A stretch of 25,642 nucleotides of DNA from a virus (taxonomy: Duplodnaviria; Heunggongvirae; Uroviricota; Caudoviricetes). Where the stretch lies: the IMG/VR virus record IMGVR_UViG_2541047502_000029; one strand, written 5' to 3'. Positions within the stretch are counted from its first letter, which is position 1. Each line of letters opens with the position of its first letter. Shown here one piece after another: positions 15,401 to 21,400 of this stretch. Position numbers: made by a program.

Positions 15401-18400
15401 TGAAAGATTTAGTCTTCTTAAAGACCAATACTTTATAGATCTACAAAGAATAGATGTTGTATCACAGGCGAATTTCTATTTAAATAATTTTGCAGATATT
15501 TATTGTGAGTTCTGTAATACACCGCAAAAAAAAGAAAATGAAATATCATATGATGATTGTTTTTTGTCGTGTAATGCAGAAAAATTGAAAATCAAAAGCC
15601 AGCTGAAAGGATTAATTGAATCAATCGGATCTAATGTTCGCGAACATGAATTAATTATGTTAAGAAAAAATGATGTTAATGAAATTTATCAATCAGAAAA
15701 AAGTGATTTTAAGACGTTAGAAGATAAAAATATAAAACAATACATTCATCTCTTGAATCACTTTATGAATATAAAGACAATCTTTTAATGGATCACACAA
15801 AACATAGCATTCTATCTTCATTACAAGATAAAGAAGATGATGTTGACGAACTTAAATACTCCGCCGAGGACTTTGACTCCTTAACAGTAGCTGATTTGTA
15901 TGATATAGAAATAGCGATGCAAGACTTTTTGAATGATATAAATTTTGAAAATTCTAAAGATAACAAAGTGCGATTTGACGAAGATACATATGACTTTAAT
16001 ATCAATGGGAAACGCCGAGGAATGTTTGGTAAAGGTACCCGTGCAGTAATGCATGCTATATTTACCATTTGCTTTGCGGAATTTTTATCAAGAAAAGGGA
16101 ATCCATTCATTGGATTTGTTGTGCTTGATAGTCCATTAGTGACGCACTTTGATAAAGATAGAGGGGGTTCTCTATCGGATGTTAATAGCGTCAGTCTCAG
16201 TGATTCATTTTATCACGCATTAATCAAAAGGGACTATAATTTCCAGATTGTAATTCTTGAGAATAAAGGTCCGACGTTCCAAATAAAAATTAATGATGCA
16301 AATAAAATCCATAACTTAAATAAGAATGGAAGCTCTGGTTTTTATCCTGTTTAATACATTAAAAATATAACTGCTAATTGGGGTGCTCGAAATTATATTT
16401 CGTTTCGAGCGCTCAGTTCATTTCTAAATAATTTGCAAAATTATTTTGGGTACTTTCGCCTCTACACTTCCTTCGGGTGGTTCCACAATAATGGATCTCA
16501 CCGGCGTTTGATATTTTATAATCTAACCCCTTAGCGCGCGCAGCCCCCCACGCCTGCTCGCTTCGCTTAACAGACTGGTTTTCATGCATTCCGCAAATCG
16601 TCTCAGAAGCCACCACACAAGGGCTTTCGCGTCAAAAATGGTGCATGAGAATCATGCGTTTTCATGCGCTATAGACATGCACTCATGCGCTCTCAGGCCA
16701 GCCAGGGAAAAGGCGTAAAAAATCCCAGTACTGGACCGGGATTACGTGGGCTTTTTTTGCTAATCAGACAGGAATTTGCTGACGGCTTGACAGCTTTGAC
16801 GCGGAGCCATAGCGATTGAGAGTTTGCTGTTGTTTTTCCGGCATTTGTGCTTTCTCTGATTCCTGTTCATTGCGCCGGGGCTTCATGATTATCGTATCCA
16901 CACTTTCCAGTGCGGTAAATGTGTAGGAACATTCAAGATTCTGGCACTGATACCATGAGCGTTTAACCGATGGTGCTTCATAGGCGGAGGTTCTGGCGTG
17001 TGCCGTCGTACCGCATTCGGGACATTTAAGTGCCATTAATATTACTCCTGCATGCCGTTAATGTAATCCAGACGTTGCTGAAAGCGCAGTTGTTGTGCAG
17101 GGGTGTAAGAGCTCTGGCAATCACGAACCATCATGGGGTCAGGCATCACACCGGATTCATCCAGAATCATACGATAATCCCCGGCAATTTCAGGCGGTGT
17201 TATTGCCAGCTGGCGAACCAGAGCATTGCGTAATATACGGGACGCAACGTCAACCCCTCCGCGCCCCTTCAGGAACGGAGCCAGTGCAGATGTCAGGGCT
17301 GCTCCATTCGCCTGCATAAAATTGCTGAGAGCGTCTTCTGTGCAGGCCTCCATCAGTTGATGCTGCGAGTAAATGCATTCGCGCGCAGCACAGTTAATTT
17401 GCCATTTCAGCACATCCAGATGTTCCCGCTGTAATTCGAGCTGTCGAGCATAATCTGCTGGTTTTTCCATGGCAGTGAGGAGTGATTCTATCTGTTGTTC
17501 AACGGCTTTTCGGCTCTCACTATGTCCAGCCCACAGAATACGGGCATTTCTAAAACTGATAAGCGCTTGGTCTGGAGTGACTCGGGCCATCATACTGCTT
17601 TCTCCTTCTCAGCACGTTCCTGACGAACCTTCATTTTATGCATAGCTGCTGGAGAGAGTTTATTACTGAAATCCAGACGGGCCGCATAATCCGGGGCAAC
17701 TCCCGCCAGTTTAAACACGGGGTCCTGTTCGGGCATCGCATCGTTAGTCAGAGCCGGTCTGGTGATATGTTTATGAATAAAATCTTTCAGCAGTGTGTCC
17801 GGGTCATTAACTGAATGCACCACACCGACAACTGCGCTGGCTTCCCTGCCCATTGTTGATTTGAGCAGGCTTAGTGTCTGGATTAGTGCTTTTCCATGCG
17901 ACTGCATAAAATCTTCCCAGATTTGTTTTGCGCGAATACCCACAAGGGTGTCGTGCGCGTGGATATACTTTCCGGCTAATTCCGCAGCCTCCTGCGGCAA
18001 AAGTGCATTTTCGCTTTCCTGAGCCGCCAGCAGCTCATCAAAATCCTCAAGCGTTTCTCGTCCCAGCGCAATTTCCGTGCGCAGTTTTTTCATTTCCTTT
18101 GAGACTACGCCCTGACTTTCACGAAATAGCGTGCGCCACTCCTCATTCAGGGCGTTCGTCGTGGCTTCCATTTCAGCGCGGCGCTGGCGGATTGTCGCAA
18201 TATTATCCGCTGCCGCTTTTTGCTGACGACGTGCTTCAAGCCATGCAGATTTGGTGGCATTCACTTTCTCAAGCGCCTGTTGCGTCGAAACAGGGATAGA
18301 AATTTCAACGATCGGGTTATTGTTCTGTTCTGGGATTGTCATGTCAGCACCTAGTGGTTTGTCGTGGTGTCAATTGTGCTGTGATGCATACAAAGCTGCC

Positions 18401-21400
18401 ATTGAACGCCATTGTGCGAGCGACAAGACAAAGACTGAACCGCCCCGGACCTCTTTTGGCTAGCCAGAAAAGGCCTCGTTTAACTAAGGCTGTTTCAGAC
18501 TTACCTTAACTATTCACTACTATTCACTTAGGTAAAAAAAATAGGTAATACAGAAGGTTATAAGGTGAAGGGTTGGCATGGCAGTATTCATCGACTGTTC
18601 ATAACTGTTCACATGGGAATAAAATTATTTATGGTATTTTTTCATAATGGGTGGTTTTTTTATTCCTCGTAGCTATTTGTTTTTTGCTCCTCACCACTAT
18701 TCACCCTTATTCAGGAGTATTCAACAGGCACATAAATAGACTGCATGTTTTTGCCGGGGAATAACATTTTCGCCTCTGGCCATGGTGTTGCATTTCATAC
18801 TGATTTTTATAAAACTAGATCTGTCCGGTTCTTTATGGATTCATTCGGATATATTTTACGATTTAAGGTGATGTTATTTAATATCAAGGTTTTTATGCAG
18901 GCCCAATGTTTATAAGTTGGATGCGATTCAAAAATATGCCCGGAAATTGGGGCCTGCAATGCAAGGCCTCGTGTAGAAGTTGTACTGCCTTGCTGTATTG
19001 GCGGTGGGGTTAGCACTATCAGGTGCAATGACCCATAGGATAGTAAACCCTGGGTGAATGGTAGTTCCTATTAATGCTCCTGTATTTATAGTCCGCAGGC
19101 ATGGTATTTATTATGTCATTTTATATGGTTTAATCGGGCTTTAAATTCCATAAAATCAATATGTGACGCTAAATAAAAAATGCGTGCGCAGGTGGTTTAT
19201 ATACACATAATAAGGAACTACCTGAACCCGGATAAATTCATCCGGACTGTTGTGGAAATTAAAGAGGGTAGATAAATGCGTAATATTTCTGTGTCTGCGC
19301 CAGCTCCTGCTGCGCCATTATTTCCTGTATCGAACCATCATGAGCGATTTTTACGCCTGCCTGAGGTGATGCACTTATGCGGGTTGTCCCGTTCGACCGT
19401 TTACGACCTGATCAGCCGCGATGCGTTTCCGAAGCAGATCCCGCTTGGCGGTAAAAATGTCGCCTGGGCACAGTCTGAGGTCAGCGCATGGATGGCGGAC
19501 CGCATCAGCGCCCGTGGGCGGGGATGTGATGCATGATGATACCTGCATACATTAAATACCTTTATTCTGGCTTGCTTACTGTCGTCATTTCCAGGTATAG
19601 TTTTTCCGCTGTCGCAAAATCGGCAGCCGGAATTGGCGTTCCGTATAACTTATTGGCGACAATTGACGCCCCTTGCGTCTTTTTTTACGTCGTAGCTCAG
19701 GCACAACCATTTTCAGGGCTGTGGTGTTTATGCTTACACCATGGTTCTATCGAGATAATGGTAGTCCGGGCGGGGCAGCCTTCGGGCTGGCCGGTTTCCA
19801 ATAAGGCCGGTTACGCCAACCCCGTTCGGGCTGCCACCAGTGAAATTGGCGTTTCCGGTGGTAGCAATAACCGCTACTTATTGGAGGCTGCCATCATGGC
19901 TACAATCCTCACCCCGTCACACCCGCAATATGTCTTTGTGTTTGCCGCAATCCGCCGTGCTGACACTCACCCCCGCATCTGTATGCTTCGCACTGTCTCC
20001 TGCGATGAGCGTTCCGCGCGCCGTTTGCTAGCCCGAGATTATGTACTCTCCCTTTCTGCACGGCTGCCTGCCGGGGAGGTGACGCTATGAACCAGTTTGA
20101 GATTTCCTACGACGATGTTGTAAGGCTGAAACATTTACGCAATGTGGGTGAGTATGTAACTGGCATGGCAGCCCTGCAGGACTGTTATGAAAAGCCAGCA
20201 GGTGCCCAATGCGAACAACTGGTTTCCCTCATTTATCTGATGACAGAGCAACTGGATGGAGTGGTGCAACGCTGCCATGACGACCTGATGAATGCGGAGG
20301 TGGCCTGATGATATGCTGTGAATCTCTTCTGGCACTTCGTGCCGCTCTGTATCGCCGTGCCGTTGCCTGTGCCTGGCTGGCTCTAAGCAATCATCAGGAA
20401 CGTTATTCCGGCCTGACGCTCGCTGAACTTGAAGATGCCATAGCCCGCGAGCTGGAAGGGTTCTATCTGCGCCAGCATGGGCAGCAAAGAGGGCTGGAAA
20501 TTGCCTGCGCGTTGCTTTCGGATCTGATGGAGTCGGGGCCGCTTAAAGCCTGTCCGGTTCTCTCACTGCTCGGAATGACGGTCATGGATGAACTTTGTTC
20601 CCGTCACCTCAACAAACCAGCGCTGCACTAAGGAGGGCCGCACAATGTCAGGAATGAAAGTTAGCCAGGCTGAGAAAGCAGCTCGGGGTCACTGGTCAAG
20701 AATTTTACCTGCGCTGGGCGTAAATGTACTGAAAAATCGGCACCAGCCCTGCCCGGTCTGTGCCGGGAAAGACCGCTTTCGATTTGATGACCAGGAAGGG
20801 CGGGGAACGTGGTTCTGTAACCAGTGCGGGGCAGGTGATGGCCTGGCGCTTGTAAGTAAAGTACTGGATGTAGGCATTAGTGAAGCGGCAGACAGAATAA
20901 ACGGCATTATCGGAAACCTGCTGCCAGTATCTCAGGGAATGCTTGAATCTGGTTCTCCTGAAAAAGAGGACGGGAGAAAAGCTGCAGCAGTGCTGGCTGC
21001 CCGTTTGTTTGATAAGTCCCGCCAGACCACTGGCAATGCCTATCTGACGAGTAAAGGGTTTCCTGCACTGCCTTGCCGGGAATTAACCGCTATGCATAAA
21101 GTCGGTGGTGTGGCATTTCGCGCGGGAGATCTTGTCGTTCCATTGTATGCAGATGGAGAGCTGGTAAATCTGCAGTTAATCAACGCTAATGGGGGCAAAT
21201 GCTTCCTTAAAGGCGGTCAGGTTAAGAATGCCTTTTACCTGGTTGAAGGTACTGCCAAAGCAGCCAAACGGCTCTGGATAGCGGAAGGATATGCCACCGC
21301 ACTTACTATCAACTATCTGACTGGCGATGCTGTCATGGTGGCCTTTTCGTCCGTCAATTTCCTTTCCCTGGCGAGCATTGCCTGCAGTGAGTACCCAACG

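What the first reader, a model, noticed from the sequence alone, without database searches (positions are those of the whole stretch)
18343..19275. Iteron-like octamer arrays at helical phasing in the divergent control region, plus TGT-N12-ACA elements
Eight copies of T(G/A)TTCA(C) occur in three clusters (18511/18521; 18586/18596/18607; 18698/18708/18718), each spaced 10-11 bp. P4 alpha protein is known to bind TGTTCACC iterons in ori and crr, so this may be the satellite replication origin. The pair at 18596-18613 also matches the Ogr/Delta-responsive TGT-N12-ACA pattern, so the two readings overlap. A second TGT-N12-ACA at 18375-18392 lies only about 40 bp from the sid start.
Basis: partly seen in the sequence, partly recalled or inferred. 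Interest (0 to 1): 0.5.

Follow-up and report, generated by a model that had tools for sequence, protein, structure and literature searches.

The report
P4-type satellite replication origin iterons
The repeated T(G/A)TTCA motifs are the replication origin of a P4-like satellite prophage in E. coli O157:H7, built like the well-studied origin of satellite phage P4, so this is a known kind of element with some lineage-specific variations.

Summary
Eight T(G/A)TTCA copies lie on the + strand at 18511, 18521, 18585, 18596, 18606, 18698, 18708 and 18718, spaced 10-11 bp; no simulation came close.

The window is a P4-like satellite prophage of E. coli O157:H7. The GenBank record of P4 annotates its replication origin, with TGTTCACC "type 1 repeats", in the same sid-vis/alpA interval.

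The P4 interval alone matches window 18351-18661 (E 7.7e-14). The layout of an iteron pair, an A-rich stretch, an inverted copy and an iteron triple recurs upstream of alpha genes in about 45 loci from other Enterobacterales. The iteron 7-mers are the best-conserved positions there.

The element also encodes an intact alpha primase-helicase whose C-terminus matches the solved P4 origin-binding domain, and it keeps one crr-like unit at 24366-24479.

The third cluster sits roughly where P4 has its "type 2" repeats, which match my recalled Cox-box consensus. It most likely binds alpha, but this is not settled.

The TGT-N12-ACA at 18375 is homologous to a P4 site upstream of sid. The better-conserved site at 18413-18430 was missed. 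The one at 18596 is a by-product of the iterons.

The parts
18375..18392 (-). sid-proximal TGT-N12-ACA dyad (TGTGCTGTGATGCATACA), upstream of the sid start codon at 18342
   Evidence: It aligns with P4 TGTGACGTACACCGGACA. It is kept in P4, in the window's subgroup and in L035-L038.
18413..18430 (-). Distal TGT-N12-ACA dyad (TGTGCGAGCGACAAGACA).
   Evidence: An exact TGT-N12-ACA lies at the same offset from the origin core in about 40 of 48 loci, including P4.
18450..18473 (.). Palindrome CCTCTTTTGGCTAGCCAGAAAAGG between the sid promoter and the iterons; function unknown
   Evidence: I11. TGGCTAGCCAG is invariant in six subgroup members. P4 has GGCAAGCCAGG at the aligned place.
18509..18528 (+). 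Iteron pair, ACTATTCACT twice, 10 bp apart (counterpart of P4 type 1 repeats 9413-9396)
   Evidence: Nearly invariant in 44 loci.
18529..18563 (.). A/T-rich spacer (77% A+T) with an A run and the conserved AATACAG block; candidate unwinding region
18564..18571 (-). Degenerate inverted iteron GGTGAAGG (P4 and most relatives have GGTGAACA)
18583..18613 (+). Iteron triple: TATTCAT, TGTTCAT and TGTTCAC at 11- and 10-bp spacing (counterpart of P4 type 1 repeats 9338-9310)
18614..18687 (.). T-rich, 73% A+T stretch between the triple and the third array
   Evidence: Poorly conserved in the family.
18686..18725 (+). Third array: TCCTCAC, TATTCAC, TATTCAG and TATTCAA at 10-bp spacing. It lies in the zone where P4 has type 2 repeats.
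   Evidence: Conserved in six subgroup members while the flanks diverge; L205 carries one extra 10-bp unit relative to L206. More members are L190, L193, L133, L337, L350 and L388.
19185..19267 (+). Counterpart of the P4 sequence just upstream of vis (P4 late leftward promoter region and vis leader), directly before alpA
   Evidence: nhmmer with the P4 interval alone, E 1.5e-4. Invariant block ACATAATAAGGA.CTACCTGAA in the subgroup. The promoter assignment is from my own knowledge of P4.
20645..22978 (+). alpha primase-helicase, the presumed initiator. Its C-terminal about 100 residues (22655-22978) form the origin-binding domain.
   Evidence: 72% identical to P4 alpha. Pfam Zn_Ribbon_Prim, Toprim_3, D5_N and Pox_D5. 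The C-terminus matches PDB 1KA8 with E 3.8e-48.
24366..24479 (+). Single crr-like unit with an inverted iteron pair (GGTGAACA / TGTTCACT) and a further TGAACA. It is separated from alpha by an inserted ORF.
   Evidence: nhmmer with the two P4 crr 120-bp units, E 5.8e-6, model positions 5-119. crr units lie downstream of alpha in 59 of 87 related loci.

Best explanation
Window 18509-18613 is the replication origin of a P4-like satellite prophage and the counterpart of P4 ori1. It comprises an iteron pair, an A/T-rich block, a degenerate inverted iteron and an iteron triple. The in-phase third array at 18686-18725 probably belongs to it.

Proposed mechanism, by analogy with P4: the element's own alpha protein (20645-22978) binds the T(G/A)TTCA(C/T) iterons through its C-terminal winged-helix domain. 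Because the iterons are 10-11 bp apart, the bound proteins sit on one face of the helix. Alpha also binds the crr unit at 24366-24479, bridging the two sites. It then opens the adjacent A/T-rich DNA and starts replication with its own helicase and primase activities.

The origin shares the divergent control region with the sid promoter, whose two TGT-N12-ACA dyads at 18375 and 18413 are candidate Ogr/Delta activator sites.

Shown here: sequence homology, synteny, conservation, and the presence of an initiator with the binding domain. Inferred: binding, looping, unwinding and firing.
For: 1. Synteny with an annotated origin. The P4 record places rep_origin 9086-9809 and the type 1 repeats in the vis-sid interval. 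The window has delta, psu, sid, alpA and alpha in P4 order, plus C4 and isrK RNAs.

2. Homology. The P4 interval alone hits window 18351-18661 with E 7.7e-14, and blastn gives 71.6% identity over 109 bp across the iterons. In both elements the first iteron lies about 168-170 bp from the sid start, and the pair and triple are 74-75 bp apart.

3. Conservation. A two-sequence profile finds the same core 1.6-2.7 kb upstream of alpha in about 45 loci that were retrieved through the alpha protein, not through the repeats. Iteron 7-mers carry 1.8 bits per position, against 1.26 for the bases between iterons, 0.94 for 18572-18584 and 0.66 for the DNA after the triple.

4. Initiator. Alpha is intact and 72% identical to P4 alpha. 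Its C-terminus matches the solved P4 origin-binding domain 1KA8.

5. A crr unit is present.

6. Wider association. TRTTCA arrays also lie beside alpha homologues of only 32-43% identity in viral contigs.

7. Third array.
- ACTATTCAC is identical to the unit of the pair, and TATTCACC is the best match to the P4 octamer in the intergenic region. It is also an annotated type 1 variant in P4 crr.
- The array is conserved in six subgroup members.
- That subgroup is marked by alpha middle and C-terminal parts at 91% identity or more, against 87% or less elsewhere. AlpA and Cnr do not follow the subgroup.
Against: - No binding or replication data exist for this element.
- The iterons depart from TGTTCACC: two of the triple end in T, the final C is lost and the inverted copy is degenerate.
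- Only one crr unit is present, with a decayed internal array.
- The third array occupies the zone of P4's type 2 repeats. Across the family the repeat type at that position follows orf73, AlpA and Delta more than the alpha C-terminus, in an analysis confounded by overall relatedness.
- orf73 also marks the subgroup, at 86% or more against 57% or less elsewhere. Alpha is therefore not the only candidate partner for the third array.
Confidence: 0.85

Rival explanations
1. The third array (18686-18725) is not an origin iteron set. It is a binding array for a regulator of leftward-operon transcription, such as a helper-phage Cox-type excisionase, as I recall for P4's type 2 repeats. On this reading its likeness to alpha iterons is secondary.
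For: - The array lies 75-82 bp past the triple, in the zone (+77 to +123) where P4 has type 2 repeats. About half of the relatives carry a 3-4 copy, 10-11 bp array of element-specific sequence there.
- P4's type 2 repeats read TTAAAGTCA, TTAAAGCCA and TTAAAGCAA. That matches the P2 Cox-box consensus as I recall it.
- The P2 record says Cox activates a P4 promoter.
- TTTGCCA arrays occur both at this position in satellites and, in four P2-like contigs, between the att core and the int 3' end. That is where P2 has its annotated Cox site.
- A promoter-like TTGCAT-N16-TAAAAC with an invariant GTTGCATTTC lies 65 bp downstream.
Against: - The units share the 9-mer ACTATTCAC and the hexamer TATTCA with the origin iterons.
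- The clear counterpart of the P4 promoter/leader is about 480 bp further on, at 19185-19267.
- No P2-like contig was found among 186 sampled viral contigs with TRTTCA or TATTCA triple arrays; only alpha-bearing ones were.
- AlpA does not follow the subgroup.
Confidence: 0.2
2. The repeats derive from an origin but are now a relic. In this chromosomally fixed prophage the origin no longer fires, because the iterons and crr have decayed.
For: - The inverted iteron is degenerate and the triple has TTCAT variants.
- There is a single crr unit whose inner repeats are decayed and which is displaced 1.4 kb from alpha.
- The locus is 99% or more identical in about 300 E. coli genomes, consistent with vertical inheritance in one lineage.
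- In strain TW14359 the integrase is split by IS1203.
Against: - The same variant iterons and third array are kept, against diverged flanks, in at least six elements from Escherichia, Scandinavium and Enterobacter. Each has a full-length alpha, and more such elements occur in viral contigs.
- Single crr units are common among relatives.
- Alpha and int are intact in the window.
Confidence: 0.2
3. The arrays are operator sites for a transcription factor of the element itself (AlpA/Vis, Delta or the immunity system) that controls the divergent promoters, and have nothing to do with replication.
For: They lie in a divergent promoter region. One iteron pair happens to match TGT-N12-ACA.
Against: - The P4 record annotates the homologous repeats as origin repeats.
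- The same motif recurs in crr downstream of alpha, away from promoters.
- The motif is constant across elements whose AlpA identity to the window's AlpA ranges from 49% to 97%.
- The TGT-N12-ACA match at 18596 is not conserved.
Confidence: 0.04

Closest known systems
Satellite phage P4 ori1 (type 1 repeats TGTTCACC bound by alpha protein)
   Same: - Same interval between sid and vis/alpA.
- Same order: pair, A-rich block with AATACAG, inverted copy, triple.
- Same 10-11 bp phasing.
- Same distances from the sid start (about 170 bp) and between pair and triple (74-75 bp).
- Detectable sequence homology.
- Cognate alpha with the 1KA8-type domain.
   Different: - The iterons read TATTCAC/T or TGTTCAT/C rather than TGTTCACC, and the inverted copy is degenerate.
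- An extra in-phase TATTCA array follows.
- The sid-alpA interval is 933 bp against 552 bp in P4, so the window carries about 380 bp more. Window 18662-19184 is the stretch not matched by the P4 interval, and the length difference lies within it.
P4 crr (cis replication region downstream of alpha)
   Same: A 114-bp stretch at 24366-24479 aligns over nearly the whole 120-bp crr unit. It includes the inverted iteron pair and the A/T run.
   Different: There is one unit instead of two, and its inner direct repeats are decayed. It lies 1.4 kb from alpha because a 318-aa ORF is inserted between them.
P4 'ori type 2 repeats', which I take to be P2 Cox boxes upstream of the P4 late leftward promoter
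   Same: The third array is a 3-4 copy, 10-bp direct-repeat array in the same zone downstream of the type 1 triple.
   Different: The unit is TATTCA-like, as in the iterons, not TTAAAGNCA. It lies about 480 bp, not about 60-90 bp, from the clear promoter counterpart. That P4's type 2 repeats are Cox sites rests on my memory of Saha et al. 1989; it was not tested here.
P2 Ogr / P4 Delta-dependent late promoters (TGT-N12-ACA dyad)
   Same: Two exact dyads lie 38 bp apart upstream of sid, aligned with two dyads in P4. An Ogr/Delta zinc-finger gene is present. The consensus is cited in PMC3931495.
   Different: No exact dyad lies upstream of alpA. At the aligned place the window has TGT-N12-AAA, 7 bp closer to the -10-like CATAAT than in P4 (my reading).

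Membership tests
P4-type alpha-dependent origin (ori1) | Lies in the divergent interval between the sid operon and the vis/alpA-alpha operon of a P4-like element | tested here: met
   P4 annotation; window gene content and order
P4-type alpha-dependent origin (ori1) | Direct TGTTCACC-type octamers in a pair and a triple at 10-11 bp spacing, with one inverted copy between them | tested here: met
   The octamers are variants (7/8 at best) and the inverted copy is degenerate.
P4-type alpha-dependent origin (ori1) | Sequence homology to P4 ori1 beyond the repeats | tested here: met
   nhmmer with the P4 interval alone, E 7.7e-14; blastn 71.6% over 109 bp. A blastn search of the phage collection at default settings found nothing.
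P4-type alpha-dependent origin (ori1) | Cognate alpha primase-helicase with a C-terminal origin-binding domain encoded in cis | tested here: met
P4-type alpha-dependent origin (ori1) | A second cis site (crr) carrying the same repeats | tested here: met
   One unit at 24366-24479, E 5.8e-6. It is weaker than in P4.
P4-type alpha-dependent origin (ori1) | Alpha binds the repeats and the fragment supports alpha-dependent replication | not testable with these tools
   Needs a footprint or gel shift and a replication assay
Ogr/Delta-activated late promoter | TGT-N12-ACA dyad upstream of the promoter, at about -55 by my recollection of the P2/P4 literature | tested here: inconclusive
   Dyads are present and position-conserved, but the transcription start is unknown here. 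If the 18413 dyad is at -55, the start falls about 25 nt before the sid ATG and the 18375 dyad at about -18. This is inference.
Ogr/Delta-activated late promoter | Activator of the Ogr/Delta zinc-finger family available | tested here: met
   PF04606 in ORF 16764-17036, E 1e-16
Cox-box array (helper excisionase site upstream of a satellite promoter) | Unit matches the boxes of a helper phage's own Cox sites | tested here: not met
   No P2-like contig carried TRTTCA or TATTCA triple arrays in the sampled scans.

The most novel reading that the evidence does not exclude
The zone just past the type 1 triple is a fast-evolving helper-sensing array in P4-like satellites. Each lineage carries 3-4 phased copies of whatever box its helper's Cox-type excisionase recognises. 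P4 has TTAAAGNCA. Many Enterobacter, Citrobacter and Klebsiella elements have TTTGCCA, which is also found at the Cox-site position of P2-like prophages.

In the O157:H7 lineage this array has been replaced by alpha-type iterons, together with a 380-bp longer leader. That would change activation of the replication operon from helper-triggered to alpha-coupled.
Probability: 0.25. Interest if true: 0.55.

Novelty: new member of a known kind. Interest (0 to 1): 0.25.

Why it matters
The result assigns an unannotated 933-bp intergenic region, present in about 320 complete E. coli genomes and mostly in O157:H7, to a defined function. That region holds the origin and late-promoter control region of a P4-like satellite.

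It shows that the P4 ori1 and crr architecture is conserved across Enterobacterales. It also shows that iteron variants go together with variants of the alpha helicase and C-terminal parts. This is useful for annotating satellites and for predicting which satellites could share or exclude each other's replication.

It does not change the understanding of how such origins work.

The side observation deserves a dedicated study. The neighbouring "type 2" array is hypervariable, and in one class it matches arrays at the Cox-site position of P2-like prophages. That could explain the helper specificity of satellite activation.

Tried and rejected
- **blastn against the phage collection.** A search with the whole intergenic region found nothing. 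Homology to P4 appeared only by direct alignment and with nhmmer.
- **Rfam.** At E up to 1 there was no RNA family in 18300-19350. The C4 and isrK hits lie downstream, in the immunity region.
- **Vis/AlpA as binder of the type 2 or third array.** P4's type 2 unit does not recur near P4 attP, where I recall Vis binding. AlpA identity does not follow the third-array subgroup.
- **Family-wide association of array type with proteins.** Every protein correlated, because overall relatedness confounds the test. orf73 was highest and the alpha C-terminus lowest. I treat this only as a hint.
- **Viral-contig scans for TRTTCA and TATTCA triple arrays.** After filtering by tblastn, only alpha-bearing contigs were informative.
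- **Small ORFs in the extra DNA** (56 aa at 18745-18915 on +; 73 aa at 18807-19028 on -). These are unlikely to be genes. The ATG of the first is ATA in L065, and the subgroup alignment has indels there that are not multiples of three.
- **Literature.** The primary P4 origin, Delta and Vis papers are not held. Statements about alpha binding, looping, Cox action at the late promoter and Delta site positions therefore rest on record annotations and on my own knowledge.

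
Full report
**What the window is.** The 933-bp region 18343-19275 is 100% identical to an unannotated intergenic stretch of E. coli O157:H7 chromosomes. It is found in 319 of 5426 complete E. coli genomes. The flanking genes are those of a P4-like satellite prophage:
- integrase, 11842-13074;
- Ogr/Delta zinc finger, 16764-17036;
- Psu, 17042-17593;
- a Sid-like protein, 17590-18342, on the minus strand;
- on the plus strand, AlpA/Vis (19276-19536), an Ash/Icd-like ORF, a DUF5375 protein and a 777-aa primase-helicase that is 72% identical to P4 alpha.

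Rfam finds the C4 antisense RNA and isrK just downstream of alpA, as expected for a P4-type immunity region.

**The observation.** T(G/A)TTCA occurs eight times on the plus strand within 213 bp, at 18511, 18521, 18585, 18596, 18606, 18698, 18708 and 18718. Simulations with the local composition gave a mean of 0.8 copies and a maximum of 5. None had even two adjacent 10/11-bp spacings, against five observed. The repeat finder adds a degenerate in-phase copy at 18688. Alignment adds an inverted degenerate copy at 18564-18571.

**What it is.** The GenBank record of P4 annotates its replication origin (9086-9809) in the same vis-sid interval. Six "ori type 1 repeats" lie at 9310-9413 and three "type 2 repeats" at 9176-9205. 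The same type 1 repeats recur in crr downstream of alpha.

Read in the window's orientation, P4 has an iteron pair about 170 bp from the sid start. An A-rich block with GTAATACAG follows, then an inverted GGTGAACA, then an iteron triple 75 bp after the pair. The window has the same elements at 168 bp and 74 bp.

Searching the window with the P4 interval alone gives 18351-18661 with E 7.7e-14. A second match, at 19185-19267 with E 1.5e-4, corresponds to the sequence just upstream of vis.

**Conservation in relatives.** I retrieved 80 loci from one genome per species through conserved alpha peptides, independently of the repeats. A profile of the origin core then found the same architecture 1.6-2.7 kb upstream of alpha in about 45 of them. 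These came from Enterobacter, Citrobacter, Klebsiella, Kluyvera, Serratia, Yersinia, Erwinia and other genera.

Across 44 aligned sequences the iteron 7-mers carry 1.8 of 2 bits per position. The values are 1.26 bits for the bases between iterons, 0.94 for 18572-18584 and 0.66 for the DNA after the triple.

**Other parts of the replication system.**
- The last 107 residues of alpha match the solved P4 origin-binding domain, PDB 1KA8, with E 3.8e-48.
- A profile of P4's two 120-bp crr units hits the window once, at 24366-24479 (E 5.8e-6), over nearly the full unit. The hit includes the inverted pair GGTGAACA / TGTTCACT.
- Here crr lies 1.4 kb from alpha, because a 318-aa AT-rich ORF with no family match is inserted between them.
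- crr-like units lie downstream of alpha in 59 of 87 related loci, as one or two copies, and are often displaced by insertions.
- TRTTCA triple arrays also lie next to alpha homologues of only 32-43% identity in viral contigs. The link between motif and initiator is therefore old.

**A lineage-specific variant.** The window belongs to a subgroup with a long sid-alpA interval of about 910-930 bp, against 552 bp in P4. Other members are elements from Scandinavium (L065), Enterobacter (L052) and other E. coli strains (L204-L206).

All six share these features, while the surrounding DNA is only 70-92% identical:
- the pair ACTATTCACT / ACT(A/G)TTCACT;
- a degenerate inverted copy;
- a triple with TTCAT variants;
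- the third array CCTCAC.A. TATTCACC ... .TTCA.... TATTC.A.

L205 and L206, which otherwise look identical in the alignment, differ by exactly one 10-bp unit of the third array.

Proteins that mark the subgroup are the middle and C-terminal parts of alpha (91% identity or more, against 87% or less elsewhere) and a 73-aa ORF at 20087-20308 (86% or more, against 57% or less). AlpA (77% in three members, while outgroups reach 81%) and the DUF5375 protein (72%, the same as outgroups) do not mark it.

**The third array.** It lies 75-82 bp past the triple, in the zone where P4 has its type 2 repeats. About half of the relatives carry a 3-4 copy, 10-11 bp array there whose unit differs between elements: GCTTTAAG, TTTGCCA, GGCCAAT, TTGGCA, CCCTTAT and others.

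On the other strand, P4's type 2 repeats read TTAAAGTCA, TTAAAGCCA and TTAAAGCAA. That is the Cox-box consensus of helper phage P2 as I remember it. The P2 record notes that Cox activates a P4 promoter.

The third array could therefore be a regulator site rather than origin iterons. I still favour alpha binding, for these reasons:
- Its units share the 9-mer ACTATTCAC with the pair and the hexamer TATTCA with the other iterons.
- TATTCACC is an annotated type 1 variant in P4 crr.
- The clear counterpart of the P4 promoter region lies about 480 bp away.
- Among 186 sampled viral contigs with such arrays, only alpha-bearing ones and no P2-like ones were found.

I put this at about 0.6-0.7 for alpha, about 0.2 for another regulator, and the rest unknown.

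**The TGT-N12-ACA elements.** There are three exact matches in the intergenic region.
- 18375-18392 and 18413-18430 align with two dyads in P4.
- The distal one is at a conserved offset from the origin core in about 40 of 48 loci. The proximal one is kept in P4, in the window's subgroup and in a few others.
- If the distal dyad sits at -55, as I recall for P2/P4 late promoters (consensus cited in PMC3931495), transcription would start about 25 nt before the sid ATG. The proximal dyad would then lie near -18. That would explain why the proximal dyad is only about 40 bp from the start codon. This is inference.
- The match at 18596-18613 is produced by TGTTCA-N4-TGTTCACA. It is lost in L065 and L204 and in the wider family, whose iterons end in ACC. 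I regard it as a by-product.
- No exact dyad precedes alpA.

**How it most likely works.** By analogy with P4, alpha binds the phased iterons at the origin and at crr, bridges them, opens the neighbouring A/T-rich DNA (77% and 73% A+T), and starts replication with its own helicase and primase. The P4 evidence is the annotation, the Ziegelin et al. 1993 reference listed in PMC8628076, and my own knowledge. Homology, synteny, conservation and the presence of the initiator are shown here. Binding and firing are inferred.

A relic origin is possible, given the degenerate inverted copy and the single decayed crr. Conservation of the variant in several genera, each with an intact alpha, argues against that.

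**Novelty.** This is the counterpart of a classical, well-characterised origin in an unannotated place. It is a new member of a known kind, with a variant iteron set and an extra array.

The more interesting lead is a side observation. TTTGCCA arrays occur at the type 2 position of many satellites. In four P2-like contigs they also occur between a tRNA-like att core and the 3' end of int. That is where the P2 record annotates its Cox-binding site. This suggests that the position is a helper-matched sensor across the family. I did not test this beyond those scans.

Noticed in passing
L001 9176-9205; L007, L019, L022, L024, L004, L025, L050, L056 and others, about 80-120 bp past the type 1 triple; L230 551-590, L228, L285, L239: The place of P4's 'type 2 repeats' holds a 3-4 copy, 10-11 bp array whose unit differs between P4-like elements. 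The TTTGCCA type also occurs four times in tandem in four P2-like prophage contigs, between a tRNA-like att core and the int 3' end. That is where P2 has its annotated Cox site. This may be a helper-matched sensor.
   Followed up: partly
window 18662-19184: This stretch has no match to the P4 interval. The sid-alpA interval is 933 bp here against 552 bp in P4, and this about 380 bp of extra length is specific to the subgroup. It looks non-coding, since its indels are not multiples of three. It contains a promoter-like TTGCAT-N16-TAAAAC with an invariant GTTGCATTTC (18786-18822). It also has an inverted repeat, 19060-19076 with 19206-19222, that brackets the region before alpA.
   Followed up: partly
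window 18450-18473: Palindrome CCTCTTTTGGCTAGCCAGAAAAGG between the sid promoter dyads and the iterons. TGGCTAGCCAG is invariant in six subgroup members and partly kept in P4. Similar GGCTAGCC motifs lie after the triple in some Yersinia and Erwinia loci.
   Followed up: no
window 23111-24067 (- strand): A 318-aa AT-rich ORF with no Pfam, PHROG or PADLOC match is inserted between alpha and crr. Several relatives (L004, L027, L043, L048, L052, L065) also have 0.8-3 kb inserted at this spot, so it may be a cargo hotspot.
   Followed up: partly
window 20087-20308: A 73-aa ORF (phrog_10110, function unknown) at the place of P4 epsilon/orf151 is the protein that most sharply marks the window's subgroup: 86-100% identity within it and 57% or less outside.
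   Followed up: partly
window 11841-11852 and 24519-24530: The 12-bp word AATGTGTATAGG occurs at the integrase start codon and again just past crr. This may be an attachment-site core repeat or chance. No tRNA gene is in the window.
   Followed up: no
window 19608-19685 and 19754-19841: The isrK and C4 antisense RNA matches lie inside the 185-aa Ash/Icd-like ORF (19533-20090). That ORF overlaps the RNA-based immunity region.
   Followed up: no
window 13078-16354; L002 3737-7012: The cargo between int and delta is annotated in the O157:H7 record as an ABC-three component system with an AAA ATPase. This is the usual defence hotspot of P4-like elements. In strain TW14359 the integrase is split by IS1203, unlike in the window.
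   Followed up: no
L049 (Kluyvera genomosp. 3): This locus has alpha, orf73 and AlpA fragments 95-100% identical to the window's, but only as broken pieces and with no origin-core hit. It looks like a decayed copy of the same lineage.
   Followed up: no
window 19163-19180: Where P4 has its TGT-N12-ACA upstream of vis, the window has TGTGACGCTAAATAAAAA (TGT-N12-AAA). It lies 7 bp closer to the -10-like CATAAT. Delta control of the leftward operon may be lost or altered in this subgroup.
   Followed up: no
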